In this document: positions 3,740-63,702 of the stretch, in pieces
Position numbering within the stretch: the first letter of the stretch is position 1
Layout of the letters: each line of letters begins with the position of its first letter
From: a virus
Strand: one strand, 5' to 3'
DNA: 64,000 nucleotides
Virus record (IMG/VR): IMGVR_UViG_3300045988_176357
Coordinates: 128,053-192,052 of that record
The notes under the pieces: generated by a model
Seen by the model: only the letters and a program-made list of their open reading frames with translations
The model's database searches: none
What the model was told of the DNA's origin: nothing
Made by a program: the position numbers and the translations under genes

Positions 3740-3779
3740 AGCAGAAAGTACAAACGGACGCAACGTCCGTAAGTTCATG

Positions 3780-12288: not shown

Positions 12289-12349
12289 GCTGGTACCAGC
12301 TTACGTTGAATCAGAAAGTACAGACGGACGCAATGTCCGTAAGTTCATG

Positions 12350-21892: not shown

Positions 21893-22291
21893 ATGTCCGT
21901 AAATTCTTTCTATCCACATACAGAAAGGGAGCAGCTAGCTCCTTTTGCAAACAAACGTGTGTTGGTAACTGGAAAAGTGCAGCATATTGCGGCTTGGATG
22001 TCGGGTAAAAGGTGGGGGTTGCGAGCTAACCTGGTTCAGTGCAAAGTAAAGCATGGTAATATTCAAGTAAGTGTCGACCATTTTACAGTCAATGTCGGGA
22101 AACAATTTATCGCTGTTCGAGCCAAAAGGAACACAACAGTATCTTTCTATGCCACAGTCAAGGCATATCAGCCTGACAAACAACTGAAATATGTACCTGA
22201 TGACGTCAAGATCGCTCTCGGTCTTACACCAAGAGTACCATCATATGGCATCAAGTGGCCTACAAGGGTCGAGGTGGTCAGTAGATGTTAG
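21893..22291 (+). CDS. hypothetical protein (one of only two ORFs here ending in TAG)
   Basis: ORF; its stop overlaps the next start (ATGTTAG). Confidence 0.4.
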   Translation: MSVNSFYPHTEREQLAPFANKRVLVTGKVQHIAAWMSGKRWGLRANLVQCKVKHGNIQVSVDHFTVNVGKQFIAVRAKRNTTVSFYATVKAYQPDKQLKYVPDDVKIALGLTPRVPSYGIKWPTRVEVVSRC

Positions 22292-24662: not shown

Positions 24663-25625
24663 ATGAAAACAGAAAGAGTACTGAAGAAGAACGCAATCAA
24701 GGCTTACAAAGCCTTTAACAGTGACCTGACTTGCAAAGGCTTCCAATATGAAGTCGGCAAGACCTACAGGCATAATGCTGTCTTGAAACTGTGCGAGTCA
24801 GGCTTCCATGCTTGCGAAAGGCTGGTTGACTGCTTCAGTTATTATGAGCCAAACCGAGCAAAAACTCGAATTTGCGAGATTCTGGCTTGGGGCGATATCC
24901 AGAGAAATACCGAAGACACCAAGTTATGTGCATCCAGAATCCACATTGTAAAGGAGTTGTCCTGGGATAACGTATGCTGTCTATGCAATAATATCGGCAT
25001 CGGAAATCAAGGATTGGGTAACTCTGGAAATTACAACAGTGGAAACTCAAATTCCGGTAACTGGAATACAGGTAATAACAACGAAGGTAAGTACAATTCA
25101 GGCAATTGTAACGCTGGCTTAGGGAATGTAGGCACAGGCAATATAGGCAATAATAACTGTGGCCACTATAATTACGGTCATAGGAATTCCGGAAACAATA
25201 ACATAGGATGTCGCAATGTAGGAAACCACAATACGGGCTACTATAATGTCGGTAACTGGAACAAAGGGTCGTTTAATATCGGCTGCTTCAATACAACAGA
25301 TGCCACTGTACATATGTTTAACAAGCCTGTTATCGGAATCAGGCCATTTGATATTTTAGTCCCAGGTTTCTGCATCTTCGATACGACAGAATGGGTATCG
25401 GCCAGATGTATGACAGCTGAAGAAAAGAGGTGGCATCCCGAGTACGTTACAACAGGAGGGTACCAAAAACAATACGACTACAAGGAAGCCTTCAGAAAGT
25501 CCTTCGAGGAGGCAAAGCGCCTTCCGGACTGGCCCGAACAGCTTAAGAGGCTGAAGGCGCTGCCCAACTTCGATGCCAAGGTATTCGAGGAGATATCAGG
25601 CATCAAGGAAGAGGAACTTGTTTAA
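24663..25625 (+). CDS. NxGxx repeat protein, paralog 2
   Basis: Same N- and C-terminal domains as 20644. Confidence 0.6.
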   Translation: MKTERVLKKNAIKAYKAFNSDLTCKGFQYEVGKTYRHNAVLKLCESGFHACERLVDCFSYYEPNRAKTRICEILAWGDIQRNTEDTKLCASRIHIVKELSWDNVCCLCNNIGIGNQGLGNSGNYNSGNSNSGNWNTGNNNEGKYNSGNCNAGLGNVGTGNIGNNNCGHYNYGHRNSGNNNIGCRNVGNHNTGYYNVGNWNKGSFNIGCFNTTDATVHMFNKPVIGIRPFDILVPGFCIFDTTEWVSARCMTAEEKRWHPEYVTTGGYQKQYDYKEAFRKSFEEAKRLPDWPEQLKRLKALPNFDAKVFEEISGIKEEELV

Positions 25626-30265: not shown

Positions 30266-31725
30266 ATGCTGGAAACAAAAGTCATGTTCAATGCTACAGA
30301 GATCACGATCAAAGTGTCTGTGTGGGCGCGGGGTGATCCGTTCCCTGCTATTGGACATGCTGTAGGTATAGACACAGAAACCGAACTGATTACAGACGCC
30401 GAGCTTACGCCTCCGTTGGTTGTACTCGGCGTTTTTAATCCTGCTGACATGACCTGCTACCAGATATCCTGGACCGACGCGCAGTACTTCATGCAGGAAC
30501 TGCTTAAGCGTGACTGCAAGCTGTACTTCGCCAATGCAGGATTTGATTACTTCGAGCTTGAAAGCGATGAACTTCGAGATGCGGTCAGCAATGACCGTCT
30601 CGTAGACTTGCTCATCAGGGCTCCGCTGAAAGAGATCGCTACGATAGGTTACATCAGAACGCACAGCCTGAAGGATGCCTGCCAGTGGCATCTCAATTAC
30701 GAGATGGACAAGCACGAGGATGAAGGCGACCAGGCAGCTCGTGTCACGTTCCGAAGGAACAAGGACATTACAGATGAGCAGCGCATTTACCTGACAATCG
30801 ACTGTGCGTCCACCTATTATGCATGCGAGGCGATCGGGCCTCAGGCGACAGAGTGCACGCATACACGTGGGCAGATCGTCCTGTATCATATCAGCAAGAA
30901 CGGCTTTCCGTATGATCCGTACATGTTTGATTACTGCGAGAAGCTGTTACAGCAGCATATGGACCAGTACCGTGCAGAGCTCATCACGTACGGGTATCCT
31001 GATCCATACAAGAAGGACATGCCGACAGATATCAAGCAGCTGCAGGACGGCTGGCCGATGTTCAGGGACGCCTGGTTCGCCGCTCATATCAAAGAGAAGT
31101 ACCAGTTCGAGGACTCGCTGCCAGGCAAGAGCACTGTAAAGCGCATATTGCTGTACGGCACTGCGTATATGCAGCACGGTACCGATAAAGGCACTCTGGC
31201 ACGAGTGTTCGCAGCATTGCTGCTGCAGGACAAGAACCTGTCCAAGAAGGAACAGGCTGCATATGACCAATTGGTGGAGGAGCACGACTTTCTGGATGCC
31301 TGCAACGGTGTTGGCAAGAAGGAGGTTTGGCCGACGCTGCTGGTTGCGTGGATGCGTGCCGAGCTGGATGGCAAGGACATTGCTGGCATCTGGCAGGCAG
31401 TGGACGATGCGGTGCAGGACCACCCGCAGTGGTTCTGTACTGAGGAGCCTGTCAAGCCCAAGGCGTTCATGCAGGACCATCTGCGGGAACTGCAGGAAAA
31501 GTACCCTGGACTGGAGTTCGACAAGACGCTCAAGTCAGGTGAACTGAAGTGCTCCAAGAAGGACGCGTGGAAGTTGGCGGATGCGGGAGTGAACGATCCG
31601 CTGCTGACCGCGTACGTAAACTTTGGCCATGTGCAAAAGTATAAGTCGTCGTTTACCAATAGGGAATACCTGAGGAGCGACGGCAGAGTGCGGTGCCGCT
31701 TTGGCATCGTGGAGAGCGGTCGGTT
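30266..31725 (+). CDS. family-A DNA polymerase, exon 1 (3'-5' exonuclease domain plus N-terminal polymerase domain)
   Basis: Exo I GIDTETE, Exo II FANAGFDYFEL; ORF then reads into intron 1. Confidence 0.75.
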
Positions 31726-32051
31726 TGGCCGCTTCACACCGCGAGGTGTGTCGAACAAGAAAGTGAATTGCTGGGACACCTTAACGGGTAACGCCGAAGG
31801 CAATCAGCAGCCGAGCCATGCGTTCGACAGAACGCCAGCGCATGGAAGGTTCATCGACTATCCCGTACGTAATGGGAGTACCCGAGTAGCCATGTGCGTG
31901 ATAACGCACGAAAGCAAGGGGAAGCACTCTGGCTCAGGAATGAGTCAATGATATAGTCAGTGCGCTTATGGAAACATAAGGAGTGGTCAGGAGTGACAAC
32001 CTGAAACCTGCTACTGGGCGGCAACCGGTAGTGAACAAGATCCTTGGTGTG
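31726..32051 (+). ncRNA. polA intron 1: transposase-less IStron-type group-I-like intron
   Basis: Hairpin cacacc-gcga-ggtgtg plus the conserved core; ends ...ccttggtgtg; junction restores ..SGRFT|ISSLRTSASKPNLQQYP (PolA TGRLSS..PNLQNIP region). Confidence 0.55.
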
Positions 32052-32183
32052 TACAATATCAAGCCTGCGTACATCGGCATCTAAGCCGAATCTCCAACAA
32101 TATCCGTCACACGATCCGGTGTTTGCCTTGAAAAACATGTACAAGCCACCGGATGGAACCATTTTTGTCAGCGTAGACTATAG
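32052..32183 (+). CDS. polA exon 2 (through motif A ..VSVDYS)
   Basis: PNLQQYP and VSVDYS motifs. Confidence 0.6.
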
Positions 32184-33227
32184 CTTCGAAGCGGAGCCTT
32201 CACACCGCGAGGTGTGTCGAACAAGAAAGTGAATTGCTGGGAGTGCATAATGCCTGCGAGGCTACAGCGTAACCGCAAGGTAAGCGCGACAGCTGCGAAA
32301 GCAGAAAGAACACGCAGGATGGCATAAGGTGACAGTAAGCCTAAGTGCTGTGACAATTGCTGATCAGCAGCCGATCAAGGGATCTCCTAAGGCGAAAGCT
32401 ATGGAGCCCGGAAAGGGTTCAGAGACTAAGCGCTCCTTCTCTGGAAACGGAGAAGATGATATAGTCCGATTGTATTTAAATATTATTGCTGTATAATTAG
32501 AATATATAAGGCATTAACCACACAGAATTAACATGGACACAAAACCCGTTGGTTTCATTTACAGAATATATTGTACGTTGTAGTACTGTAGCAAAAGCTA
32601 TATAGGGCAGACACGACACAGCATATAGAAAAGGTTCGCTCAGCACTGTTGTCCTGGAGCGAAGCGAAAGACTTACATAGACAGAGCTATCGCATATCTA
32701 GGTAAATAGCATTTTTGTATCGAGTAGCTTGCAGAAGCACAAACGCTTCAGTAGTTAAATAAGCTGTAGATCTAGTATATAGAGAAGTACGGTAGTTTGT
32801 TTCCGGGTGGATTTAATATATCTAAAGGAGGTACAGTACCGTAGTTTACTTACTCTGGTAAGCCTGTAGTGCATTACTAGACCGGTATTGTATATAGAAA
32901 CAGTCAGTAGGCTGCATAGGCTACAGGTTGTAATGCTTCAGATATTCGTAGTATAGCCAACAAACGTATAAAGTCTACAAAAGGGAATCACTTTTATTGG
33001 TAGTTTACAGCTTTATAGGCTTATTTGGACTTTTGGAATACTCCGGATAAGAATGGTCCGAAGCGTATTATCAATGTCAGTACTGGATAGGTGTTTTAGT
33101 CACAGATAGCTGTATGCAGAAAATACAACCTAACTAAGTCACAGGTATCCAGAATGTGCCTAGGCAAAACAGCTAGTCTGAAGTCGTGTCCTTATGTATT
33201 TGAGTTTTACCAGCAATAAGCAGTTAG
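32184..33227 (+). ncRNA. polA intron 2: second type of group-I-like core (32186-32468, sharing the 5' module) plus a GIY-YIG HEG
   Basis: Core has a close homolog at 34910-35194; ends with G at 33227; junction restores DYS|AELVALAES (compare DYSQIELRILAHLS). Confidence 0.55.
32533..33219 (+). CDS. GIY-YIG homing endonuclease with NUMOD1 DNA-binding module; 15 in-frame TAG codons, no TAA/TGA
   Basis: With TAG read as a sense codon: MDTKPVGFIYRIYCTL.YCSKSYIGQTRHSI.KRFAQH ... STG.VF.SQIAVCRKYNLTKSQVSRMCLGKTASLKSCPYVFEF; stops with TAA 9 nt before the 3' splice site. Confidence 0.7.
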
Positions 33228-33465
33228 CGCAGAGTTGGTCGCGCTGGCAGAATCGTGCATAACAAAGTACGGCGAGTCCGTATTAGGCACTATTATCAAC
33301 GCGGATGTATGTCCGCATTACTTCTTCGCCGGTGTCATGATGGGTCTCATAGACGCCGACGTCAGCTTTTGCAGGGATCCCCAGGAAGTGGATCGTGTCA
33401 AGAAGTTCCTTAAAGAGCACGTAAGCAAGGAAGAAAGACAGAGAGCAAAAGCAGTTAATTTCGGT
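33228..33465 (+). CDS. polA exon 3 (O-helix / motif B up to ..RQRAKAVNFG)
   Basis: Motif B RRxAKxxNFG. Confidence 0.65.
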
Positions 33466-34498
33466 TAAATAATGTAAAGGAATGTAAAATGTAGTATAGA
33501 TGTTTGGAGTGTGGGTGTCTGTTCTAGGCTAAGCAACCGGCTAAATACTGCTCGCAAGCACATAAACAAAGGAAACAGAACCACAAAAGATAGGTGTATA
33601 TCTGTTTAAATTGCGGTTGTAAATTTTAGAGAGCAAAGCGTTCTGATTATGTTTTTTGCGGGCATAAATGCCGGTGTGCATATAGATAGAGTCATCCTTA
33701 GTTCGACTAGAGATAGTTCGTAGTTAGTAGAATGCAAGCGGATAACACACTGAAGTTCAGTAATAGATAGGCAAAAGCTAAAGCTAATGACATATATTGT
33801 GGTAAAACCCGGTTACGGTGGTCATAGGAAGCTTTAGATGCTTAGCTGTAGAGACGTGGTATATCAGTAACAGATTTTGGTCATAGGTGCTACAATAAAA
33901 CTTTAGCCCAATCGCCCTACGCATAGGTAATTGCGTCTAAATAGAAAACTTTAGATAAGCGTAGACGTATATATGCAAAGAAGAAAGCACTCGGCCTTAT
34001 TGTTACTGAAAAGTCTACTAACCAGAAGGTAAGATAGGCTATAATTAAATAGAGATATGGAATATGCTAGTGCTGTGGTTACTGTCAAAATGTCGATGCT
34101 TTGCAGTTACATCATGCAGATATGGATAGAAGCCACAATAATAAAGCTAATCTAGTTCTCTTATGCGCTAATTGTCATCAGATACTGCATACACGTATAA
34201 AGCGCAATTGGCATATGTATACGTAGCCTAAAGTCACATGTATATTACAATAGTTGCAAAGTATGTAGGCCGAAGTAAAAGAGCGGAATAAAGCGGGAAC
34301 TGCCGACAGGCAAACCCGAACCGAAGGCACGCAGGAATGCGTGTCAGGGGCAACGCGTAGCAGTACGTCCAGCTCGGATATGAACTGCCAAGAGGCCGCT
34401 CCTCTGCAGCCTATGCTGCAAAAATGTACGCTGAACACCGGTGTATGGACAGAAAGACCGGGAGCTATGGGATAAAAAGCCCGTAGGATAACAAATTG
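33466..34498 (+). ncRNA. polA intron 3 carrying an HNH HEG
   Basis: 5' splice site after ggT, 3' splice site after ttG; junction restores NFG|LPGGMKGKRLYQHL (compare NFGLIYGMSAFGLARQL). Confidence 0.55.
33489..34475 (+). CDS. HNH homing endonuclease with N-terminal CxxC zinc-ribbon repeats; 20 in-frame TAG codons, no TAA/TGA
   Basis: With TAG as sense: ..YRCLECGCLF..YCS..YICLNCGCKF... CQCCGYCQNVDALQLHHADMDRSHNNKANLVLLCANCHQILH; ends with TAA ~25 nt before the 3' splice site. Confidence 0.65.
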
Positions 34499-34909
34499 CT
34501 GCCAGGTGGCATGAAAGGCAAACGCCTATATCAGCACCTGAGAGAATGCGGCATCAAGGCTACGTTGCAGGAAGCCTTTCAGCTCAGGGAAACCTGGCTG
34601 CGAACCTTTAAGGAAATGAACCTGCACTTCGCCAGAACGCCGCTAAGACAAGACCCAAGGGAAAGGTACGCCTGGATACCTGCAAGTGACGACGACACAA
34701 GTACAGAGGACGCTGACCCGAAGGCAGATAAGCGCAAGGGTCGTCAGCTGTATGAAGTCACAACAATTACAGGCTTCAGACGTAACCGTACCGTAATCAA
34801 CAGCTGCCTGAACACAGAGTTTCAGAACCCAGTTGCACATCTTGCAAAGGAGGCTCTATGGAACTTCGAGAGGGCAGGACTCGGTAATCGTCTGCTGAAT
34901 TTTGTCCAT
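34499..34909 (+). CDS. polA exon 4 (to ..LLNFVH of motif C)
   Basis: Ends with the H of the VHDE motif. Confidence 0.65.
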
Positions 34910-35194
34910 GGCATCGTGGACGTTAAAGAAAGTGAATTGCTGGGAGTGCATAATGCCCGACTGCCTGATACAGGAGCGAAAGCAGAAACAAGTGTCGGGA
35001 TGCCTCAAGCTGAAACAAGTACCCGTGAGGGGCGCTAAAAGGTGGTGCAATTGCTAATCAGCAGCCGATCAAGGGATCTCCTAAGGCGAAAGCTATGGAG
35101 CCCGGAAAGGGTTCAGAGACTATCCCGCAAGGGAGTAGGGCGAAAGTCCGAAGCACTCCTTCTCTGGAAACGGAGAAGATGATATAGTCCGAAG
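34910..35194 (+). ncRNA. polA intron 4: compact group-I-like intron (same core type as 32186-32468)
   Basis: 5' splice site after caT, terminal G at 35194; splicing restores motif C FVH|DEADYW. Confidence 0.65.
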
Positions 35195-35440
35195 GATGAA
35201 GCAGACTACTGGGCCTACCCAAAAGAGGTCAGGCAGCTAGCTCCGATAGTGGAGCGATTGTGGCTGGAGCCTGGTCGCCGTGTGTTCCCTCATGTCATGC
35301 TCAAGTGCGAGACATCACTGAGCCTGTACTGGGACAAAGGCGGCGTCGAATTTCCAGATGTCAAGTGGAACGATAACGGGGAGCCGATACTGGAACTCCC
35401 GCCGTTCGTTCAACAGGCGTATGCCGCAAAAAGTACATAA
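35195..35440 (+). CDS. polA exon 5 (C-terminus)
   Basis: In frame from DEADYW to the TAA stop. Confidence 0.65.
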   Translation, partial: DEADYWAYPKEVRQLAPIVERLWLEPGRRVFPHVMLKCETSLSLYWDKGGVEFPDVKWNDNGEPILELPPFVQQAYAAKST

Positions 35441-35497: not shown

Positions 35498-35746
35498 ATG
35501 AAAACAATTACAAAATGTACGTTGCTTGCAGCAGCTGCAGCTTGTACCATGTTAACTGGCTGCGATAGCGAAGAGGATTTGCAGAGATATAAATGCGAGG
35601 AGATTACGCGTCTATGCGAAGACCTGAAGGTGATTGAGTACGACGGATGTGAGTACTTGCTTTTTGGTCCGTACTCCTATGCTGGACTTCTAACACATAA
35701 AGGTAACTGCAAGTACTGTGAACAGCGAAGGAACAAAACGAAATGA
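35498..35746 (+). CDS. small Cys-rich putative lipoprotein
   Basis: Signal peptide with lipobox LTGC. Confidence 0.45.
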   Translation: MKTITKCTLLAAAAACTMLTGCDSEEDLQRYKCEEITRLCEDLKVIEYDGCEYLLFGPYSYAGLLTHKGNCKYCEQRRNKTK

Positions 35747-36831
35747 GAACAAAAAGAGTACTGAAGAAAAATGCAATCAAGGCCTATAAAGCCTTTAACA
35801 GTGACATGACTTGCAAAGGCTTCCAATATGAAGTCGGCAAGACCTACAGGCATAATGCTGTCTTGAAACTGTGCGAGGCAGGCTTCCATGCTTGCGAAAG
35901 GCTGGCTGACTGTTTCAGTTTTTACCCGTTCAGGGAAGCTGAAACCAGAGTGGCCGAGGTGCTAGTCTGGGGTAAAGTCGAGTATGCAGATACAGGTGTA
36001 AAACTCTGCGCCTCAAATATCAAGATAGTCAGAGAACTTGCATGGAGCGAGGTGTTATCTCTGTGTAACACTGGCTACGATAACAGCGGCCACAGTAACA
36101 GCGGCAACCATAATAGCGGCAGCTGGAACAGTGGCAGCTTTAATAGCAGCAACTGGAACAGCGGCGACTGGAACAGTGGCGGCTTTAATAGCGGCAGCTG
36201 TAATAGCGGCAGCTGTAATAGCGGCAACTGGAACAGTGGCAGCCGTAACAGCGGCGACTATAATATAGGCAACTATAATATAGGCTACGGTAACAGCGGC
36301 AACCAGAACAGCGGCGACTATAATACAGGCGACTGTAACAGCGGCAACAATAACACCGGTGACTGGAATAGCGGCGACTATAACACCGGCAACTATAATA
36401 TAGGCAACTGGAATGCAGGTATATTCAATACAGGGGCTTGTGAATATGCTTTTGCGTTCAATCAGCTTGTCAAGAAACAAGACTTAGAATGTCTTCCAAG
36501 TATACCATTCCTACGTTTTAAGCTTGTCGAATGGATACCGGAAAAGCATATGTTGCCGGAAGAGAAAGAGCAGCACCCTAAGTATGCGACAGCCGGAGGT
36601 TATCTCAAGAAGTACGACTACAAGGAAGCCTTCAGAAAGTCCTTCGAGGAGGCAAAGCGCCTTCCGGATTGGCCCGAACAGCTTAAGAGGCTGAAGGCGC
36701 TGCCCAACTTCAACTTCAAAATCTTTGAAGAGATATCGGGTATCACTGCCGAGGAGTTAACAGGCAGCACTGTCGAGAAGTTGACTACGAAACCGAAACG
36801 CAAACGGGAAAAGAGCACTAAGGGTGCTTAA
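35743..36831 (+). CDS. NxGxx repeat protein, paralog 3
   Basis: Same family as 20644. Confidence 0.6.
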   Translation: MRTKRVLKKNAIKAYKAFNSDMTCKGFQYEVGKTYRHNAVLKLCEAGFHACERLADCFSFYPFREAETRVAEVLVWGKVEYADTGVKLCASNIKIVRELAWSEVLSLCNTGYDNSGHSNSGNHNSGSWNSGSFNSSNWNSGDWNSGGFNSGSCNSGSCNSGNWNSGSRNSGDYNIGNYNIGYGNSGNQNSGDYNTGDCNSGNNNTGDWNSGDYNTGNYNIGNWNAGIFNTGACEYAFAFNQLVKKQDLECLPSIPFLRFKLVEWIPEKHMLPEEKEQHPKYATAGGYLKKYDYKEAFRKSFEEAKRLPDWPEQLKRLKALPNFNFKIFEEISGITAEELTGSTVEKLTTKPKRKREKSTKGA

Positions 36832-36848: not shown

Positions 36849-37733
36849 ATGTATGTAAAACGTAAAGACGCAATCATAGCGTTCAAAGTGTTTTCTGATG
36901 CGGAACTGAATATGCATCATATTGTTCCAGGTACAATTCTTGACACTAAGTCCATGACCTCAGATGATAAAAGAATGTTCACTGTGTTCAAACATGCTGA
37001 GGATGCAATATCGTTGGCAGTGCATATGTGTATGCAGACTGTTTGCAGAGTGCGCGTATCAGGTAACGTACGAGAGCTGGAAGGTGGAAGGCTGTTAGTG
37101 CAGCATATGCAAGTAGACTGCGATGGACTGATACCGCTCAGAAAGCTGCTTGTTACAGTGAATAAAGGTTCTGCCAACTACGGTATATACAATGAAGGAA
37201 CTCGGAATGATGGTAACCACAATGTTGGCTGCAATAATGTCGGTAACTGGAACTTCGGCTCATACAATCTGGGCTCCTTTAATTTTGGCACTGGTAATAT
37301 CGGCAATCATAATAGTGGCGACTATAACTATGGTGACTTAAACGAAGCCGGATATTGCAATGTGGCTAAACGCACACGCTCGTGCGTCTTTACCACAGTA
37401 AATAACACCGGATATTTGAGCTTTAATAAGCCTTATACAGTTAATCTCTATACTTGTCAAATTCCTGATTTCTGCAGAGTAAAAGTCATTGAATGGATTC
37501 CTGTTTCCAGCCTGGCTACAGTTAAGGATACAAAAGAGAAATGCATGTATGCATGCTGCGGAGGTCGATTGAAAATCACCAGTTATCGGGAAGCCTTCAG
37601 GATCTCTTTTGAGGTAGCCAGACGCAAACCGGATTGGCCCAAGCAGCGGCAAATGCTGCTGGATCTGCCCAACTTCGATGCCGAGGTATTCGAGGAGATA
37701 TCAGGTATCACACCAAATGAACTTGGATTGTAA
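36849..37733 (+). CDS. NxGxx repeat protein with a divergent N-terminal domain
   Basis: NxGxx repeats plus the conserved C-terminal domain. Confidence 0.5.
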   Translation: MYVKRKDAIIAFKVFSDAELNMHHIVPGTILDTKSMTSDDKRMFTVFKHAEDAISLAVHMCMQTVCRVRVSGNVRELEGGRLLVQHMQVDCDGLIPLRKLLVTVNKGSANYGIYNEGTRNDGNHNVGCNNVGNWNFGSYNLGSFNFGTGNIGNHNSGDYNYGDLNEAGYCNVAKRTRSCVFTTVNNTGYLSFNKPYTVNLYTCQIPDFCRVKVIEWIPVSSLATVKDTKEKCMYACCGGRLKITSYREAFRISFEVARRKPDWPKQRQMLLDLPNFDAEVFEEISGITPNELGL

Positions 37734-38842: not shown

Positions 38843-39721
38843 ATGAGAGTACTGAAAAGTAGACCGATGACAGGATTCAAGGCAGTACAGTCCGATATGG
38901 CTGTCGACAATCCAAGAAGAATGGACGTCGGAACTGTGTACTCAACGAAATCTATGGCGTTGGCAGATCACAGTATGTTCTGTTTCGATGAGGAACTTGA
39001 AGACGCTGTGCGTGCATGCCTGTACAGTACGGCATTTAAGGTGTACAGATGCAAAGTCTGGGGCACAGTGCTGGATGTTGAAGGTCGCAAAATCGCACAG
39101 CACATACAGCTGGAATGCGAGTTGTCTATGCGCAAGCTTCTTAAATTGTGCAACAAGGGCGCAAGCAATTTAGGTCTCCATAACAGCGGCAGCTTCAATT
39201 TCGGAGACTGTAATGATGGCAACCAGAATTACGGGGACCACAATTTCGGCAGTAACAATGTAGGAAGCTACAACGATGGAAGCGGCAACTGCGGCAGTCA
39301 TAATTCCGGTAACTACAATTTAGGCAGCTACAATGCGGGCGGTGGATGGAATGCTGCCTGTCACACAGAGAGTTGCTTCTTTACAACAAAGAGTCATGTT
39401 GCGTTCAGGTTCTTCAATAAGCCGTACAGGGATGCCAGCATTACTGTACACACGCCTGATTTTCTTAACATCAGACCTGCTGTGTGGATTCCAGGTAAGT
39501 ATATGACTGACAAACTCAAAAGGCTTATGCCAAGAGGCGCGGATGTAGGCGGCTGCACTGTGTACTTTGACTACAAGACAGCCTTCATGAAGTCCTTCGC
39601 GGACGCCAGACGCAAACCTGACTGGCCCAAGCAACGCCAGATGCTGCTGGATCTGCCAAATTTCGACGCAAAGATATTCGAGGAGATATCAGGCATCAAG
39701 GAGGAGGAACTTGGATTGTAA
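38843..39721 (+). CDS. NxGxx repeat protein with a divergent N-terminal domain
   Basis: Repeats plus the conserved C-terminus. Confidence 0.5.
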   Translation: MRVLKSRPMTGFKAVQSDMAVDNPRRMDVGTVYSTKSMALADHSMFCFDEELEDAVRACLYSTAFKVYRCKVWGTVLDVEGRKIAQHIQLECELSMRKLLKLCNKGASNLGLHNSGSFNFGDCNDGNQNYGDHNFGSNNVGSYNDGSGNCGSHNSGNYNLGSYNAGGGWNAACHTESCFFTTKSHVAFRFFNKPYRDASITVHTPDFLNIRPAVWIPGKYMTDKLKRLMPRGADVGGCTVYFDYKTAFMKSFADARRKPDWPKQRQMLLDLPNFDAKIFEEISGIKEEELGL

Positions 39722-40815: not shown

Positions 40816-41431
40816 GATGTTGTTGCAGAAACTGAAGATCGCGCGCGAAAGCAGTTCGCGTGTTGTCTTCTGCTATAAGTATGTCTGGTCCCGAATCGAC
40901 GACTATGTGTCACTGACCAATCTGAGACTGGAAGCAATACAGGTCCGCGACGGCAAGGTCTTCCATACACAGGCCGCTCCAGTGCTTGATGTGAACCATG
41001 GTAAGCCCAGAGTCGCATTCGCAGATTCCGGTATCGTGCAGGTCACCTCAGGACCCCGATCGAACATTGTCTTGAGAGAACGTCTGCTGCACGCCAACGA
41101 GACAGCAGCTCCGGTTCCCTTTTGTGGAACCAGGGAAATTACAGAAAGCAGCGATGAGAAGGATCTTCAGGTAGTCTATGACTTCCTGACATCCGCAGCC
41201 TTTCCTGGCGTGGATATGCGCATGCCGCAGTTGTTCCGGATCACGAAGAACCCTGAAAGGCTGCGCCTGAACATCACACCTGACTTGCTGCAGGCTCTTG
41301 ATCTGGATCCCGGAACACCCAGTAAGGAGATACAGGATGCGTTCCTGAACAAACTGCCTTCCATTTCAGCGCAGACATCCGAAGGATACGTGTTGCCGTT
41401 CAACGTGTGCCGCATGTGTTTCACATGCTGA
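40803..41431 (+). CDS. hypothetical protein
   Basis: ORF. Confidence 0.4.
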
Positions 41432-41442
41432 CCAGCACACAA

Positions 41443-43010
41443 AGGACTCCTTGGCGCGTGAGCGCCATTGAACAAGAAAGTGAATTGCTGGAACACCTTA
41501 ACGGGTCATGCCGAAGGCAATCAGCAGCCGAGCTTATGGATGCCCAGACCGGGCGCCGTGAGAAGGTTCATCGACTATCCCGGAAGGGAGTACCCGAGCA
41601 GCCATGTGACCGGCAGGTCACGAAAGCAAGGGGAAGCACTCTGGCTCAGGAATGAGTCAATGATATAGTCAGTGCGCTTATGGAAACATAAGGAGTGGTC
41701 AGGAGTGACAACCTGAAACCTGCTACTGGGCGGCAACCGGTAGTGAACAGAACCATGGTCTCAAAATAGCAACATTATTTTGACGTTTTGATTTTCATAA
41801 AGGTGATGTATATTATCTGTATACAATAAGGAGCGCCATGTACAGAGCCCATAAGATACGCATAGATTGCACAAAAGAGCAGCACAGTCTGTTAATGCAG
41901 ACTGCAGGCTGCGCTCGTTATGCGTACAACTGGGGACTCGAGAAGTGGGGCAAGCAGTACGAAGCCTGGAAGGCTGATAGCAGCTTGGAGGAACCCAACT
42001 GGGTTAACATATCCAGACAGTGGACACAAGAGAAACCTGAATGGGCAAACAAGACAGCACGCAGTGCTGTTACCTGCTCACTGCGTAATCTCGGCACCGC
42101 CTTCAAGAACTTCTCAAGGCGCAAAGCAAAGTACCCGAAGAGGCATAAGAGGTCTCAAGGAATCTCCTTCCAGCTTGGAAACGATACCTGCAGTATCGAA
42201 GGCAACCGCATCAGGCTGCCTATCATAGACTACGTAAAGCTCCGTGAGACTCCACGATTCCAAGGCAAGATAACAGGCTACACAGTGCAGCTCATCGCTT
42301 CCCACTGGTACGTGACAGTCGCCTTCGACTGTCCAGACGTCCCCAAAGAAGCTCCAGAGTCCGTCGTCGGTATCGACGTAGGACTCCAGCACCCGGCTGT
42401 AGCCTCCGATGGAACAGTACTCCAGCTCCCTCTTGAGAAACTACAGAAGCTCGAAGCCAAACGGCGCAGAGCTCAGCGAGCCCTTTCAAGGAGCAAACGC
42501 AATTCCAATGCGCGAGAGCGCAAGCGTGATAGACTCCAACGTATACAGCAGAGGATCACCAACATCCGACAGGATGCAGTTCACAAGTTTACGACTGCAG
42601 TGTGCAAAAACCACGCCACTGTAGTCACCGAAGATCTGGACATAAACGAGCTCAAAGACAAGGCCCCCGCACGTTCAGTGCGCAGAGCCTACAACAGCTC
42701 CCTTATGGGACTCATTTTGTTCCAGATCTCGTACAAGGCGGTGCACCACGTAAAGGCACCCAAGTTCTTCCCGAGCACCAAGAGATGCTCAACTTGTGGA
42801 CACATTAAGGAGGCCATGCCTCCGCAAATCAGAACATACCATTGCGACCACTGCGGAGCCCATCTCGACAGAGATGAGAACGCAGCTCGCAACTTGATGT
42901 TGCAACCGTGGGTCACACGGTAAGAGGCGCGGTGATGGTACAGGCAGCGTCAGCTGCAGGTACCAGATGATCCGCGAAGACAGTCCGGTGCAACGCCGGA
43001 TGAGATCATG
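41443..43010 (+). mobile_element. IStron copy 4 (subfamily 2), apparently intergenic
   Basis: Hairpin ggcgc-gtga-gcgcc then the core; right-end hairpin atccgg-tgcaacg-ccggat + gagatcatg. Confidence 0.65.
41838..42923 (+). CDS. tnpB: TnpB, intact, 361 aa
   Basis: OrfB N-terminus; zinc finger. Confidence 0.85.
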   Translation: MYRAHKIRIDCTKEQHSLLMQTAGCARYAYNWGLEKWGKQYEAWKADSSLEEPNWVNISRQWTQEKPEWANKTARSAVTCSLRNLGTAFKNFSRRKAKYPKRHKRSQGISFQLGNDTCSIEGNRIRLPIIDYVKLRETPRFQGKITGYTVQLIASHWYVTVAFDCPDVPKEAPESVVGIDVGLQHPAVASDGTVLQLPLEKLQKLEAKRRRAQRALSRSKRNSNARERKRDRLQRIQQRITNIRQDAVHKFTTAVCKNHATVVTEDLDINELKDKAPARSVRRAYNSSLMGLILFQISYKAVHHVKAPKFFPSTKRCSTCGHIKEAMPPQIRTYHCDHCGAHLDRDENAARNLMLQPWVTR

Positions 43011-43119
43011 ACAGTGACTGGGTATATGCAGGCGGCATGATCGCTGCAAGTATAACAGGCATCGGCAAGCATAAGCCTAAGGTACTGTACACCAGAGGTA
43101 TGGACTTCTTCCGTAACTG

Positions 43120-43761
43120 GTGCGCCGCAAAACAGTGGAGTATCCAATGCTGCTGACAGAGTTGTTCGATACATGGGGAACCAAGCCTCTGCTGATGACG
43201 ACTGCGACCAACGGCTTGACACCCGGCAAAGACAAGCTGCTTGGGGTCTGTGTCAAGGACCCTGAGTTCAGCTCAGGTGACAGGCTGCTGCTCAACTACA
43301 CAACAGGCGTAGAACTTCAGCAGTCGTCGAAGTTTCATGGCATCAGTCAGCAGGACATGCAGAGCGCAGGCTTGCAGGAAGCCCAGTTCAAAGACGAGTT
43401 GGACAAGCTGCTATCAGAGAACAGCGTCGCGGTACTCACTTATAATGTACCTTTCCAGAGCAGCTTCTTAGGCGAATGTCTTCCGGAACTGGAAAGCTTG
43501 CCCCTCTATGACCTGACGATCATCGAGAAGGCAATCAGAAACGCCTATGCCTTCGACACTGAAGAGCTGGCGACGTTCAGCTCTTTCTACGCTGCCTGCT
43601 GCCACGCGGCTATGCCTGTACCTCTGGCTACACTGTGCAGGAATCTGAAGATGACTCGACAGCCTCCGCCAGGACAGCTTCCAATGGAACGGATGCTGGA
43701 CGTTTTGCAAGCGCTTTACAACGTAGCTTGCCTTGAAGATATTTCTGTGCTTCCGAGTTGA
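43120..43761 (+). CDS. DnaQ-like (DEDD) exonuclease-fold protein with substituted catalytic residues
   Basis: MTTATNGL in place of FDTETTGL; YN in place of HN; Exo III YDL retained. Confidence 0.35.
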   Translation: MRRKTVEYPMLLTELFDTWGTKPLLMTTATNGLTPGKDKLLGVCVKDPEFSSGDRLLLNYTTGVELQQSSKFHGISQQDMQSAGLQEAQFKDELDKLLSENSVAVLTYNVPFQSSFLGECLPELESLPLYDLTIIEKAIRNAYAFDTEELATFSSFYAACCHAAMPVPLATLCRNLKMTRQPPPGQLPMERMLDVLQALYNVACLEDISVLPS

Positions 43762-44260
43762 AGCTGGGAGTGACGAATCCTGTACCCAAAGCAGTCATCT
43801 ATATCTGCACCTGGGTACAGGGCTTAATGACAGGTGTGCAGGTCTAATCGATTTGCAGCATGCTGTCCTGTTTGTCAAAATTAACCCACAGGAATGTCTA
43901 TCCCACCGGACAATACAGAAGTACGAATCCCTAGCAGGCATCAAGCAACAGTGATTTGTCCGTGGCCTGATCAGCCGGTTTGACAAATTTGGTTTGAACC
44001 TACACGATGCAGCCGGACTTGGAAACTGTGCAGTTAGTCTGTGGTGCAGGTGTCACATAGTTGACCGATAACTGTACCATAGTCTAAGAGACAGAGGATA
44101 CCTGCTATTCGGGATACAGAGGGTATGAAGCTATCATCCCTTTAGTCGTTACTTCCTGCTTCTGTACGTGCGCAGCCTTATACTTGCTCAAGTCTATGCC
44201 GGATGAGACTGCGCCATCTTTAATTGAATACAATTTATGATACTACATAGGAGCTCCTAT
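43762..44260 (+). ncRNA. candidate retron msr/msd-type structured region (speculative)
   Basis: ORF-free ~500 nt directly upstream of the RT 5' exon; 10-bp inverted repeat cctgtaccca/tgggtacagg (43779-43821) and others. Confidence 0.2.
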
Positions 44261-44261
44261 T

Positions 44262-44360
44262 GTGTTGGATACATCTATCAGACCTCCGGATAAATGGAGG
44301 GCAGCAGCAATACCAAAGAAAGACGGATCGTTCAAAATATACTACATATTAGGTATACGT
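44262..44360 (+). CDS. retron-type reverse transcriptase, 5' exon (..AIPKKDGSF..)
   Basis: IPKKDGSF finger motif in a frame open from 44241; start codon uncertain (GTG or TTG). Confidence 0.45.
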
Positions 44361-45928
44361 AAAGGACGCCTTGGCGCGTGAGCGCCATTGAACAAGAAAG
44401 TGAATTGCTGGGACACCTTAACGGGTAATGCCGAAGGCAATCAGCAGCCGAGCTTATGGATGCCCAGACCGGGCGCCATGAGAAGGTTCATCGACTATCC
44501 CATATGGGAGTACCCGAGCAGCCTGGCTGCGACAGCAGCGAAAGCAAGGGGAAGCACTCTGGCTCAGGAATGAGTCAATGATATAGTCAGTGCGCTTATG
44601 GAAACATAAGGAGTGGTCAGGAGTGACAACCTGAAACCTGCTACTGGGCGGCAACCGGTAGTGAACAGAACCATGGTCTCAAAATAGCAACATTATTTTG
44701 ACGTTTTGATTTTCATAAAGGTGATGTATATTATCTGTATACAATAAGGAGCGCCATGTACAGAGCCCATAAGATACGCATAGATTGCACAAAAGAGCAG
44801 CACAGTCTGTTAATGCAGACTGCAGGCTGCGCTCGTTATGCGTACAATTGGGGTCTCGAGAGGTGGGGCAAGATGTACGAAGCCTGGAAGGCTGACAACA
44901 GCTTGGAGAAACCCAACTGGAAAAACATATCCAGACAGTGGACACAAGAGAAACCTGAATGGGCGAACAAGACGACACGCAGTGCTGTCACTTGCTCACT
45001 AAGCAATCTCGGTACTGCCTTCAAGAACTTCATAAGGCGCAAAGCAAAGTACCCGAAGAAGCACAAGAGGTCCCAAGGAATCTCATTCCAGCTTGGAAAC
45101 GATACCTGCAGTATCGAAGGCAACCGCATCAGGCTGCCTATCATAGACTACGTAAAGCTCAGAGAGCTTCCGCGCTTCCAAGGCAAAATCACAGGCTACA
45201 CAGTTCAGTACATAGCTTCCCACTGGTACGTGATAGTCGCCTTCGACTGTCCAGACGTCCCCAAAGAAGCGCCAGAGTCCGTCGTCGGTATCGACGTAGG
45301 ACTCCAGCAACCAGCTGTAGCCTCAGATGGAACCAAGCTAGAGCTACCCATAGAGAAGCTCCAGAAGCTCGAAGCCAAACGACGCAGAGCTCAGCGAGCC
45401 CTTAGCAGGAGCAAGAGGAATTCCAATGCGCGAGAGCGCAAACGGGCCAAGCTTCAACGTATACAACAGAAGATCATCAACATCCGTCAGGATGCAGTTC
45501 ACAAGTTTACGACTGCAGTGTGCAAAAACCACGCAACTGTAGTCACCGAAGATCTGAACATAAACGAGCTCAAAGACAAGGCCCCCGCACGTTCAGTGCG
45601 CAGAGCCTACAACAGCTCCCTTATGGGACTCATTTTGTTCCAGATCTCGTACAAGGCGGTGCACCACGTAAAGGCACCCAAGTTCTTCCCGAGCACCAAG
45701 AGATGCTCAACTTGTGGACACATTAAGGAGGCCATGCCTCCGCAAATCAGAACATACCATTGCGACCACTGCGGAGCCCATCTCGACAGAGATGAGAACG
45801 CAGCTCGCAACTTAATGTTGCAACCGTGGGTCACACGGTAAGATGCGCGGTGATGGTGCTTGTGACATTCGTCACGAGCTCCAGACGATCCGCGAAGACA
45901 ATCCGGTGCAACGCCGGATGAGATCATG
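44361..45928 (+). mobile_element. IStron copy 5 (subfamily 2) inside the RT gene
   Basis: ~93% identical to copy 4; same ends. Confidence 0.65.
44756..45841 (+). CDS. tnpB: TnpB, intact, 361 aa
   Basis: Near-identical to 41838. Confidence 0.85.
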   Translation: MYRAHKIRIDCTKEQHSLLMQTAGCARYAYNWGLERWGKMYEAWKADNSLEKPNWKNISRQWTQEKPEWANKTTRSAVTCSLSNLGTAFKNFIRRKAKYPKKHKRSQGISFQLGNDTCSIEGNRIRLPIIDYVKLRELPRFQGKITGYTVQYIASHWYVIVAFDCPDVPKEAPESVVGIDVGLQQPAVASDGTKLELPIEKLQKLEAKRRRAQRALSRSKRNSNARERKRAKLQRIQQKIINIRQDAVHKFTTAVCKNHATVVTEDLNINELKDKAPARSVRRAYNSSLMGLILFQISYKAVHHVKAPKFFPSTKRCSTCGHIKEAMPPQIRTYHCDHCGAHLDRDENAARNLMLQPWVTR

Positions 45929-47692: not shown

Positions 47693-47933
47693 TCTGTTTG
47701 CACGCGCTCCCGAAGCTGCGTTTAGGCAAAGGGCAATGAAGCCGATCAGACAGCGCCCACTTAAGTACATCATCCTGTCCGGTACAGAGATTGATGGAAC
47801 CATGAGCGGTACCTTGATACGTAGCTTAGTCGTGCTCCAATTACGCTCGAAAAGATCAAAGGACGTTATGCGTGCTGTGCTGGAAGTACCAGTCAACGAT
47901 GACGGCCTTAACATTAAAACACTTGAAAACTGA
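47679..47933 (+). CDS. hypothetical small protein
   Basis: ORF within the cassette. Confidence 0.25.
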   Translation: MFTSDLFARAPEAAFRQRAMKPIRQRPLKYIILSGTEIDGTMSGTLIRSLVVLQLRSKRSKDVMRAVLEVPVNDDGLNIKTLEN

Positions 47934-47944
47934 AAGGAAAAACG

Positions 47945-63700: not shown

Positions 63701-63702
63701 GA

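What the first reader, a model, noticed from the sequence alone, without database searches (positions are those of the whole stretch)
32533..34475. Two intron-encoded homing endonuclease genes are open only if TAG is a sense codon (stop-codon recoding)
Seen in sequence. The frame from 32533 to 33219 (229 codons) has 15 TAG and zero TAA/TGA, then ends with TAA 9 nt before the intron 3' end. The frame from 33489 to 34475 (329 codons) has 20 TAG and zero TAA/TGA, then ends with TAA ~25 nt before the 3' splice site. In these AT-rich stretches the other frames are littered with TAA and TGA.

Reading TAG as an amino acid (Gln under code 15 is the obvious candidate) gives coherent proteins. The first is a GIY-YIG nuclease (VGFIYRI...YIGQT...RF.QH...GGFNISKGG) with a textbook NUMOD1 module (STG.VF.SQIAVCRKYNLTKSQVSRMCLGKTASLKSCPYVFEF). 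The second is an HNH nuclease (CxxC...LHH...N...LLCANCHQILH) with N-terminal CxxCG zinc ribbons.

So these selfish nuclease genes can only be made when TAG is decoded, for example late in infection by a phage suppressor tRNA as in recoded crAss-like/Lak-type phages.
Basis: partly seen in the sequence, partly recalled or inferred. Interest (0 to 1): 0.9.

Follow-up and report, generated by a model that had tools for sequence, protein, structure and literature searches.

The report
Phage nucleases that read TAG as glutamate
Two selfish nuclease genes sit inside self-splicing introns of a phage DNA polymerase gene and can only be translated if the stop codon TAG is read as an amino acid, and the evidence says that amino acid is glutamate, not the glutamine assumed for every recoded phage so far.

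Summary
Frames 32533-33219 and 33489-34475 carry 15 and 20 in-frame TAG, no TAA or TGA, and end in TAA. They encode a GIY-YIG and an HNH homing endonuclease. Both lie in introns of a family-A DNA polymerase gene that is split into five exons.

About 66 other genes in the window contain no in-frame TAG, and only one ends in TAG. A 94%-identical contig carries a roughly 35-kb late-gene block upstream of the window start, with about 4% TAG codons, and a tRNA(CUA). The recoding reading is therefore supported.

The amino acid is wrong. TAG stands for glutamate, not glutamine:
- GAA/GAG fall from 6.4% to 1.7% in TAG-using genes, while CAA/CAG stay near 4%.
- Over 53 TAG columns in three protein families, Glu scores +49.5, Asp -19.5 and Gln -38.0.
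- One TAG is the invariant catalytic Glu of the GIY-YIG fold.
- 15 of 20 terminase TAGs are GAG/GAA in a lightly recoded relative.

Public databases translate these proteins with Gln. Recoded intron nucleases in early genes were already described for TGA-recoded phages. I found no report of TAG-to-Glu in any phage.

The parts
30266..31720 (+). DNA polymerase (family A) exon 1: 3'-5' exonuclease domain and N-terminal polymerase part. No in-frame TAG.
   Evidence: phrog_17 DNA polymerase. The splice junction 'GIVESG|RTSASKPNLQQYP' restores the Pol I motif and aligns to PDB 8jrb.
31721..32067 (+). Intron 1: group I intron, 347 nt, without an ORF.
   Evidence: Rfam RF00028 scores 40.9 bits, E = 4e-8, below the gathering score of 50. 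It starts after a T and ends in G.
32068..32186 (+). DNA polymerase exon 2, ending inside motif A (VDYSF|AEL).
   Evidence: It is 99.2% identical to the relative, against 94.4% for exon 1.
32187..33227 (+). Intron 2: group I intron, 1041 nt. The ribozyme core is at the 5' end (about 32187-32485) and the nuclease ORF fills the 3' part.
   Evidence: RF00028 scores 37 bits, E = 6e-7, at 32177-32485. Boundaries come from restoring 'DYSFAELVALAES'. It is 99.4-99.9% identical to the relative.
32533..33219 (+). GIY-YIG homing endonuclease gene: 228 codons plus TAA, 15 in-frame TAG (codons 17, 32, 59, 65, 74, 79, 81, 104, 116, 126, 129, 157, 162, 186, 189), only 4 GAA/GAG.
   Evidence: Pfam PF01541 scores 34.1 bits with TAG=E, 24.6 with Q and 21.1 with X. 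There are 4541 homologues. TAG79 falls in the invariant catalytic Glu column, which is E75 of I-TevI.
33228..33465 (+). DNA polymerase exon 3, ending at motif B (RQRAKAVNFG).
33466..34498 (+). Intron 3, 1033 nt: a compact structured intron of about 240 nt with the HNH cassette (about 33467-34261) inserted in its first hairpin loop (P1).
   Evidence: The junction 'NFG|LPGGMKGK' aligns to the Pol I sequence 'NFGLIYG'. The relative carries the ORF-less version, whose 5' exon end pairs with an internal guide sequence; fold z-score is -3.15. There is no Rfam match, so the intron class is inferred, not shown.
33489..34475 (+). HNH homing endonuclease gene: 328 codons plus TAA, 20 in-frame TAG including codon 2. 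Two N-terminal CxxC pairs and an HNH motif at codons 193-236.
   Evidence: PHROG HNH families reach 2e-13. Pfam HNH scores 15.8-16.4 bits, below its cut-off of 21.4. Full-length homologues are 35-39% identical. PDB matches fall on HNH domains.
34262..34498 (+). Ribozyme core of intron 3. It overlaps the last 71 codons and the TAA terminator of the HNH ORF and holds 6 of that ORF's 9 GAA/GAG codons and none of its TAG.
   Evidence: It is 100% identical over 232 nt to the ORF-less intron of the relative. The peptide AEVKxRNxAGxPDxxTRTEG is conserved in distant homologues.
34499..34909 (+). DNA polymerase exon 4, ending in motif C (NFVH|DE).
34910..35194 (+). Intron 4: group I intron, 285 nt, without an ORF.
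   Evidence: RF00028 scores 26.3 bits, E = 1e-3, in the window. The orthologous intron of the relative scores 33.1 bits, E = 7e-6.
35195..35440 (+). DNA polymerase exon 5 (DEADYW...), through the stop codon.
   Evidence: The spliced product is 822 aa with 0 TAG and 58 GAA/GAG.

Best explanation
The window is the early and replication part of a tailed phage genome that uses two coding modes.

Early genes, including the five-exon family-A DNA polymerase, are written so that they read the same under the standard code: TAG appears neither as a sense codon nor, with one exception, as a stop. Late genes (seen in a 94%-identical contig) and the selfish nuclease genes use TAG as their main glutamate codon.

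The two ORFs of the finding are homing endonuclease genes. The GIY-YIG enzyme sits in the 3' part of a group I intron that splits polymerase motif A. The HNH enzyme sits in the first hairpin loop of a compact intron placed right after motif B.

With host machinery alone, translation would stop at codon 17 (GIY-YIG) or codon 2 (HNH). Full-length, active enzyme needs a tRNA with a CUA anticodon that inserts Glu, and the near-identical relative encodes such a tRNA. One TAG is the catalytic Glu of the GIY-YIG fold, so misreading by another tRNA should give a dead enzyme.

Shown: the ORFs, their families, the exon-intron map, TAG as sense, TAG = Glu by comparative evidence, a phage tRNA(CUA) in the relative, and recent spread of the intron.

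Inferred:
- The tRNA is charged with Glu by a host glutamyl-tRNA synthetase. It stays as Glu because its G1-C72 first pair is not the U1-A72 pair that GlnRS and the amidotransferase rely on.
- Recoding delays nuclease synthesis until the tRNA is made. This would also keep ribosomes off the intron while the polymerase mRNA must splice.
For: ORF statistics.

Families:
- Pfam and PHROGs.
- 4541 GIY-YIG homologues and 27 HNH homologues.
- I-TevI, I-HmuI and HNH matches in the PDB.

Exon map: all four introns follow T and end in G. The spliced 822-aa protein aligns across all four junctions to Pol I structure 8jrb.

Two coding modes:
- 0 TAG in 10,149 codons of 27 window genes.
- Stops of plus-strand genes: 34 TGA, 31 TAA, 1 TAG.
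- The late block of the relative has 4.1% TAG.
- tRNA(CUA) scores 61 bits on the Rfam tRNA model.

TAG = Glu:
- GAA/GAG are 1.7% in recoded genes against 6.4% in TAG-free genes. CAA/CAG are 4.0% against 3.7%. Both nuclease genes show the same pattern.
- Residues in homologues at TAG columns: GIY-YIG E 34%, Q 6%; terminase E 38.5%, D 25%, Q 1.5%, with three columns E in all 82 homologues and a fourth E in 79 of 82; HNH, E first.
- Summed log-odds over 53 columns: E +49.5, D -19.5, Q -38.0. The controls GAR, CAR, GAY and AAR return E, Q, D and K correctly.
- Of 20 terminase TAG, 15 are GAG/GAA and 2 are CAG in a relative that is 66% identical.
- The GIY-YIG Pfam score rises by 9.5 bits with E over Q.
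- Close relatives in the public protein set, translated with Q, have 6-12% Gln and 1-5% Glu. Standard-code homologues have about 3-4% Gln and 4.6% or more Glu.

Activity: intron 2 with its ORF is 99.4-99.9% identical between two genomes whose flanking exons are 91-94% identical. The HNH cassette is present in one and absent in the other.

tRNA features against published identity sets.
Against: - There is no protein-level evidence; the amino acid is inferred only from comparison.
- The window itself contains no tRNA. The suppressor is seen only in the 94%-identical relative.
- The tRNA lacks several E. coli GluRS determinants (U2-A71, A46, absence of residue 47, U34, C36). Its closest annotated phage tRNAs are of mixed isotypes, so its charging cannot be read from its sequence.
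- No synthetase or release-factor gene was found in about 103 kb examined.
- The distant Pfam GpA_ATPase model does not discriminate: Q 36.5, E 35.1, D 34.8 bits over 4 TAG columns.
- The HNH signal is weaker, with E at 23% of cells.
- Expression timing was not tested.
- Intron 3 matches no Rfam model.
Confidence: 0.85

Rival explanations
1. One reading: TAG is read as glutamine (genetic code 15), as in crAss-like and Lak phages.
For: TAG-to-Gln is the only TAG reassignment reported for phages. CUA suppressors are readily charged by E. coli GlnRS: 28 of 29 phage tRNA(CUA) inserted Gln in E. coli extract. Public pipelines already translate these proteins with Gln. Pfam GpA_ATPase scores 1.4 bits higher with Q than with E.
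Against: Gln would reach 10.5-11% of both nucleases while Glu would be 1.7-2.7%. The catalytic Glu of the GIY-YIG fold and four (near-)invariant terminase Glu columns would all become Gln. Gln scores -38 against +49.5 for Glu over 53 columns. In a 66%-identical relative, TAG corresponds to GAG/GAA 15 times and to CAG twice. The tRNA lacks U1-A72, G2-C71, G3-C70 and U38 of the Gln identity set.
Confidence: 0.05
2. The two ORFs are dead passengers. On this view the introns arrived from some other TAG-recoded phage and the nuclease genes are never translated in this genome, so the TAG codons mean nothing here.
For: The window has no tRNA gene and no other TAG-containing gene with a recognised family. 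Homing endonuclease genes decay often, and the relative lacks the HNH cassette.
Against: Neither frame has acquired a single TAA or TGA over 228 and 328 codons. Their codon pattern (TAG high, GAA/GAG low) matches that of the resident late genes of the same lineage. The relative, with the same GIY-YIG gene, encodes a tRNA(CUA) and a further TAG-containing GIY-YIG gene beside it. The intron with its ORF is far more similar between the two genomes than the flanking exons, which indicates recent homing.
Confidence: 0.05
3. The host itself reads TAG as Glu and the phage simply follows its host's code, so there is no switch during infection.
For: Some recoded phages share their host's code, for example code 25 phages of Absconditabacteria. 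The host was not identified here.
Against: About 66 genes in 64 kb avoid TAG entirely as a sense codon, while neighbouring late genes use it at 4%. Such a split is not expected if TAG were an ordinary Glu codon in the cell. The phage carries its own tRNA(CUA). No TAG-to-Glu bacterium turned up in the literature searches.
Confidence: 0.05

Closest known systems
Recoded group I intron endonuclease in an early gene of TGA-recoded 'Agate' phages (Borges et al., bioRxiv 10.1101/2021.08.26.457843; read)
   Same: A homing endonuclease gene inside a self-splicing intron of an early gene is among the most strongly recoded genes of the phage. It was proposed that in-frame stops hold back its synthesis until late in infection.
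   Different: There the codon is TGA, read as Trp. Here it is TAG, read as Glu. Here two different nuclease families sit in two introns of one polymerase gene, and one TAG encodes a catalytic residue.
Genetic code 15 phages (TAG to Gln): crAss-like, Lak and phAss-1 (proteomic validation PMC9523058, listed)
   Same: Standard-compatible early genes, TAG-rich late genes, a phage-encoded tRNA(CUA), and TAG avoided as a terminator.
   Different: The amino acid differs: GAA/GAG, not CAA/CAG, are the codons replaced by TAG. This is a different phage lineage, with a gpA-type terminase.
Phage T4 intron endonucleases I-TevI, I-TevII and I-TevIII (from my own knowledge; I-TevI structures 1MK0, 1LN0 and 1I3J matched)
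   Same: GIY-YIG and HNH-type enzymes encoded in group I introns of phage replication or nucleotide-metabolism genes. The GIY-YIG enzyme pairs a catalytic domain with a modular DNA-binding tail. As far as I recall, expression is held back relative to the host gene.
   Different: As far as I recall, T4 achieves the delay with late promoters and an RNA hairpin over the ribosome-binding site. Here the block would be the genetic code itself.
Ciliate nuclear codes with UAG (and UAA) read as Glu: peritrich code 30 (my own knowledge) and phyllopharyngean ciliates (PMC11687900, listed)
   Same: UAG is decoded as glutamate by a tRNA with a matching anticodon.
   Different: Those are eukaryotic nuclear genomes and the change is genome-wide. 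Here it is a virus of bacteria, only part of the genome uses the codon, and TAA stays a stop.

Membership tests
Stop-codon-recoded phage, TAG as sense | Conserved genes are open only if TAG is read through. | tested here: met
   Both nuclease genes in the window. In the 94%-identical contig: terminase with 20 TAG, baseplate wedge and more than 20 late ORFs.
Stop-codon-recoded phage, TAG as sense | TAG is not used as a terminator. | tested here: met
   Plus-strand genes of the window end in TGA 34 times, TAA 31 times and TAG once.
Stop-codon-recoded phage, TAG as sense | The phage encodes a tRNA with a CUA anticodon. | tested here: met
   Found at L011 1328-1401, minus strand, in contig IMGVR_UViG_3300045988_177579; 61.4 bits on the Rfam tRNA model. 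It is not in the window itself.
Genetic code 15 (TAG = Gln) | TAG positions correspond to Gln in standard-code homologues, and TAG replaces CAA/CAG. | tested here: not met
   Glu is favoured in three families, +49.5 against -38.0 for Gln. GAA/GAG are depleted and CAA/CAG are not. TAG corresponds to GAG/GAA in 15 of 20 positions.
GIY-YIG homing endonuclease | GIY-YIG catalytic domain with the conserved Tyr, Arg, His, Glu and Asn residues. | tested here: met
   PF01541 scores 34.1 bits (cut-off 22.6) with TAG = E. Y23, G25, T27, R34, H38 and N95 are invariant in the family alignment, and the E79 column is encoded by TAG. The family profile matches I-TevI at 1.7e-10.
   No Pfam NUMOD hit at E up to 1. 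The family profile does match the DNA-binding domains of I-HmuI (5e-5) and I-TevI (9e-3).
GIY-YIG and HNH homing endonucleases | The enzyme cuts the intron-less allele and drives intron homing. | not testable with these tools
   Indirect evidence only: the intron with its ORF is 99.4-99.9% identical between genomes whose flanking exons are 91-94% identical, and the HNH cassette is present in one and absent in the other.
HNH homing endonuclease | HNH motif with zinc-binding cysteines. | tested here: met
   13 PHROG HNH families, the best at 2e-13. PDB HNH domains align over CxxC...HH...N...CxxCH. Pfam HNH itself is below its cut-off, 15.8-16.4 against 21.4 bits.
Group I intron | Match to the group I ribozyme model. 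| tested here: inconclusive
   RF00028 matches introns 1, 2 and 4 at 40.9, 37 and 26.3 bits. All are below the gathering score of 50 but have E from 4e-8 to 1e-3. Intron 3 has no match.
Group I intron | The 5' exon ends in U, the intron ends in G, and removal restores the host protein. | tested here: met
   All four introns obey the rule. The spliced protein restores Pol A motifs A, B and C and aligns across the junctions to 8jrb. Splicing itself was not tested.
tRNA-Glu by E. coli GluRS identity rules (review PMC9976931) | G1-C72, U2-A71, U11-A24, U13-G22:A46, no residue 47, U34, U35, C36, A37. | tested here: inconclusive
   Present: G1-C72, U11-A24, U13.G22, U35, A37. Absent: U2-A71, A46, the missing residue 47, U34, C36. 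None of the Gln-specific U1-A72, G2-C71, G3-C70 or U38 is present.

The most novel reading that the evidence does not exclude
A lineage of tailed phages uses a genetic code not recorded for any virus or prokaryote, with TAG read as glutamate. It applies this code only to late genes and to selfish intron nucleases. The code is decoded by a phage tRNA(CUA) that a host GluRS charges and that the Gln pathway ignores. The lineage is already present in public databases (at least 14 terminase clusters at 90% identity, plus nuclease clusters) but is mistranslated there as code 15, with catalytic glutamates written as glutamine.
Probability: 0.65. Interest if true: 0.9.

Novelty: new variant of a known kind. 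Interest (0 to 1): 0.85.

Why it matters
- Phage stop-codon recoding has been described as limited to TAG-to-Gln and TGA-to-Trp. That limit was explained by GlnRS and TrpRS being easy to co-opt. A TAG-to-Glu code breaks the rule and points to a different charging route. That route could matter in hosts that lack GlnRS and make Gln-tRNA indirectly.
- Gene callers and protein databases translate every TAG-recoded phage with Gln. For this lineage, 4-7% of residues in late proteins and nucleases are therefore wrong, including active-site residues. This costs homology signal: 9.5 bits on the GIY-YIG model.
- It extends the published idea that selfish intron nucleases can be gated by the code switch. 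It adds a second lock, because the catalytic Glu itself is a TAG.
- A natural Glu-inserting amber suppressor would interest genetic-code engineering.

Tried and rejected
- Megablast of 24 kb against 50,697 phage records gave no match.
- Rfam at gathering thresholds found nothing in the window. Introns appeared only with E-value thresholds.
- The word-indexed protein search with the GIY-YIG protein returned only itself. The exhaustive representative search was needed.
- tRNA isotype by similarity to annotated phage tRNAs gave mixed hits: Arg, Trp, Asn, Lys and 'TERM/Pyl'.
- Host identification through the TnpB transposase in 185,579 species genomes gave only two distant hits.
- I looked for synthetase, release-factor or amidotransferase genes in the window and at the start of the relative contig, and found none.
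- The Pfam GpA_ATPase score was tried as an independent E-versus-Q test and did not discriminate.
- A single-sequence PDB search with the GIY-YIG protein gave no useful hit. The family profile worked.
- A planned control with a published code-15 genome (BK025033) failed because the record is not in the collection. Internal controls (GAR, CAR, GAY and AAR columns) were used instead.
- The minus-strand frame 43577-44440 (11 TAG, no TAA/TGA) was tested as a third recoded gene. It has no PHROG match and stays unexplained.
- The Rfam isrG hit at 36090-36341 is an artefact of a repeat-rich coding region.
- Other contigs that share the tRNA anticodon arm are unrelated phages and gave too little sequence to type their codes.
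Full report
**1. The observation.** The frame from 32533 to 33219 has 15 TAG, no TGA, and one TAA, which is its terminator. The frame from 33489 to 34475 has 20 TAG, no TGA, and one terminal TAA. The other five frames of each stretch contain 4-13 and 10-24 TAA plus TGA. Using the off-frame densities on the same strand, the chance of such open frames is about 1e-3 and 3e-8 (my calculation). When only TAA and TGA count as stops, these are two of only three frames in the window of at least 150 codons with 10 or more TAG.

**2. What the ORFs are.**
- The first ORF matches Pfam GIY-YIG above its cut-off and PHROG homing-endonuclease families at 1e-13.
- An exhaustive search found 4541 homologues of the first ORF.
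- A profile of that family matches the I-TevI catalytic domain at 1.7e-10. It also matches the DNA-binding domains of I-HmuI and I-TevI.
- Pfam does not report NUMOD1 for the first ORF.
- The second ORF matches 13 PHROG HNH families, the best at 2e-13, and HNH domains in the PDB.
- The second ORF has full-length homologues at 35-39% identity.
- Its Pfam HNH score, 15.8-16.4 bits, is below the cut-off of 21.4.

**3. Where they sit.** The host gene is a family-A DNA polymerase.
- Rfam's group I model matches at 31711-31981, 32177-32485 and 34884-35212. All three matches are below the gathering score but have E-values from 4e-8 to 1e-3.
- From conserved Pol I motifs I placed the exons at 30266-31720, 32068-32186, 33228-33465, 34499-34909 and 35195-35440.
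- Every intron follows a T and ends in G.
- The spliced 822-residue protein has no TAG. It aligns to Pol I structure 8jrb across all four junctions: GR|TSASKPNLQ, DYSF|AEL, NFG|LPGG and FVH|DE.
- The GIY-YIG gene fills the 3' part of intron 2 and ends 8 nt before the splice site.
- The HNH gene lies in intron 3, which has no Rfam match.
- The 94%-identical relative carries an ORF-less intron 3 of about 240 nt. In it, the 5' exon end pairs with an internal guide in a first hairpin, and the fold z-score is -3.15.
- In the window the roughly 795-nt HNH cassette replaces the loop of that hairpin.
- The last 71 codons of the HNH ORF run into the structured core.

**4. Is TAG really a sense codon in this phage?**
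- In 27 window genes totalling 10,149 codons there is no in-frame TAG.
- Among plus-strand genes the stops are TGA 34, TAA 31 and TAG 1.
- IMG/VR contig IMGVR_UViG_3300045988_177579 (95 kb) is about 94% identical to the window.
- I walked that contig upstream of the window start and found a block of about 35 kb of late genes. It includes a gpA-type large terminase and a baseplate wedge protein.
- TAG makes up about 4% of codons in that block, and all its ORFs end in TAA or TGA.
- At contig position about 2.6 kb there is a tRNA with a CUA anticodon next to a tRNA-Met.
- The relative has the same GIY-YIG gene with all 15 TAG.
- The recoding reading is therefore supported.
- The crAss-like or Lak label is not supported.

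**5. The results point to Glu.

(a) Codon usage.
- TAG-using late genes have 1.7% GAA+GAG against 6.4% in TAG-free genes. CAA+CAG are unchanged, 4.0% against 3.7%.
- TAG plus GAR comes to 5.8%.
- The two nuclease genes show 1.7% and 2.7% GAR with 6.6% and 6.1% TAG.

(b) Aligned residues, with the query's TAG written as X.
- In 139 GIY-YIG homologues the TAG columns hold E 34% (5.3-fold enriched) and Q 6%. Codon 79 is E in 136 of 137.
- In 82 standard-code terminase homologues the TAG columns hold E 38.5% (8.6-fold), D 25% and Q 1.5%. Three columns are E in all 82 and a fourth in 79 of 82.
- In 21 HNH homologues E again ranks first, at 23%.

(c) Summed log-odds over 53 TAG columns give E +49.5, D -19.5 and Q -38.0. 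The same procedure returns E, Q, D and K for GAR, CAR, GAY and AAR columns.

(d) In a lightly recoded relative whose terminase is 66% identical, the 20 TAG positions are GAG 9, GAA 6 and CAG 2. CAG stays CAG.

(e) The GIY-YIG Pfam score is 34.1 bits with E, 24.6 with Q and 21.1 with X.

(f) Codon 79 corresponds to E75 of I-TevI. The two matched I-TevI structures differ at exactly that residue, Ala in 1MK0 and Glu in 1LN0.

One test did not discriminate. The distant Pfam GpA_ATPase model, which covers only 4 TAG columns, gives Q 36.5, E 35.1 and D 34.8 bits.

Homologue sets that contain mistranslated relatives would bias towards Gln, so the Glu signal is conservative.

**6. Public data.** The same proteins are already in the large public protein set, translated with Gln.
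- P0001 is the GIY-YIG enzyme with one further difference.
- Terminase clusters P0151-P0164 have 5-9% Gln and 0.7-4.8% Glu. Homologues at about 47% identity have about 3.4% Gln and 4.6% Glu.
- HNH clusters P0271-P0273 show the same pattern.

**7. The tRNA.**
- It has G1-C72, C2-G71, U3-A70, a D stem with U11-A24 and U13.G22, the anticodon loop CUCUAAA, and G73.
- Against the identity sets in review PMC9976931, it shares G1-C72, U11-A24, U13.G22, U35 and A37 with tRNA-Glu.
- It has none of U1-A72, G2-C71, G3-C70 or U38 of tRNA-Gln.
- U1-A72 is also the pair that the amidotransferase relies on to convert Glu-tRNA-Gln.
- This fits a tRNA that is charged with Glu and stays Glu, but it is not proof.
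- Several GluRS determinants are missing.
- Sequence similarity gives no isotype.
- No synthetase or release-factor gene was found.

**8. Are the nucleases active?**
- Intron 2 with its ORF is 99.4-99.9% identical between the window and the relative. Exon 1 is 94.4% identical and exon 5 is 91.1%.
- The short exons next to the intron are 99.2% and 97.4% identical. That pattern is expected from recent homing with co-conversion of flanking exon sequence.
- The core of intron 3 is 100% identical over 232 nt. The HNH cassette is present in one genome and absent in the other.

**9. Mechanism.**
- Under host decoding, the GIY-YIG frame stops at codon 17 and the HNH frame at codon 2.
- Once the tRNA(CUA) is available, both can be made.
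- I infer that this delays nuclease production and keeps ribosomes off the introns while the polymerase mRNA must splice.
- Because the catalytic Glu is itself a TAG, stray readthrough should yield inactive protein.
- Timing was not tested.

**10. Comparison with the literature.**
- Borges et al. describe a group I intron endonuclease in an early gene of TGA-recoded Agate phages as preferentially recoded. They propose that it is produced late. The concept is therefore not new.
- The same paper states that only TAG-to-Gln and TGA-to-Trp were seen in phages whose code differs from the host's.
- Later surveys and tools assume code 15.
- The Lak study noted some TAG aligned with E but concluded Q.
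- In E. coli extract, 28 of 29 phage tRNA(CUA) inserted Gln and one inserted Ala.
- Seven full-text searches found no phage or prokaryote with TAG-to-Glu. The only hits were ciliates.
- The library does not hold every paper, so priority cannot be excluded.

**11. Verdict.** The notable result is a glutamate-type amber code in a phage lineage. It is supported by several comparative tests and awaits proteomic or biochemical proof.

Noticed in passing
window 41390-43014 and 44333-45933: Two copies of a composite element: a group I intron core (RF00028 at 46.5 and 43.2 bits) followed by a 361-aa TnpB-type gene (phrog_506). This looks like an IStron. The first copy is precisely absent from the 94%-identical relative. 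Neither copy uses TAG.
   Followed up: partly
window 3044-3739, 11173-12288, 52871-53599: Further TnpB-type genes (OrfB_IS605 plus the Cas12f1-like TNB domain was scanned for the last two; 3044-3739 is included only because it overlaps the repeat). They share a repeat of about 500 bp at 3287-3784, 11857-12357 and 53114-53611, so the window holds at least five TnpB-family copies.
   Followed up: partly
window 43577-44440, minus strand: A frame of 287 codons with 11 TAG and no TAA/TGA. Its codon mix resembles recoded genes (GAR 2.4%, CAR 5.9%). It lies between a plus-strand gene and an IStron and has no PHROG match. It could be a real recoded gene or chance.
   Followed up: partly
L002 13181-13493 (relative contig), facing window 33459-33466: The relative has an extra group I intron (RF00028 at 44.6 bits) inserted 9 nt upstream of intron 3, between the V and N codons of motif B. 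Two introns there lie 9 nt apart. The window lacks this one.
   Followed up: partly
window 34262-34475: The C-terminal 71 codons of the HNH ORF overlap the structured intron core. The peptide AEVKxRNxAGxPDxxTRTEG is conserved in homologues that are otherwise only 35-39% identical, which suggests that RNA structure constrains it.
   Followed up: partly
L011 361-828, minus strand (relative contig about 1.7-2.1 kb): A third GIY-YIG homing endonuclease gene with 6 in-frame TAG lies about 0.5 kb from the tRNA(CUA)/tRNA-Met pair.
   Followed up: partly
L009 (Logan SRR32285420 contig): A relative whose terminase is 66% identical has only 2 TAG and 30 GAA/GAG in that gene. Some of its neighbouring late genes have up to 9 TAG and others none. 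It may be an intermediate stage of recoding. Only a tRNA-Arg(CCU) was found in the 21 kb held.
   Followed up: partly
window 46039-50148: A reverse transcriptase gene (RVT_1) is followed by genes with Prok-E2, JAB and ThiF domains, a ubiquitin-like conjugation set.
   Followed up: no
window 24663-25625, 35743-36831, 36849-37733, 38843-39721, 59476-60483: A multi-copy gene family. The two members I scanned against Pfam (24663-25625, 59476-60483) have an N-terminal DUF7666 domain and a central run of pentapeptide-type N-S-G repeats; the other three show similar repeats by eye. The repeats produced a spurious Rfam isrG hit at 36090-36341.
   Followed up: no
window 62755-63702: The anaerobic ribonucleotide reductase ORF covers the ATP-cone and only the first 152 of 562 NRDD model positions before a stop. 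The gene may be split by another intron near the window end.
   Followed up: no
window 21893-22291: The only called gene in the window that ends in TAG. Its stop overlaps the start of the next gene (22285). It has no family match.
   Followed up: no
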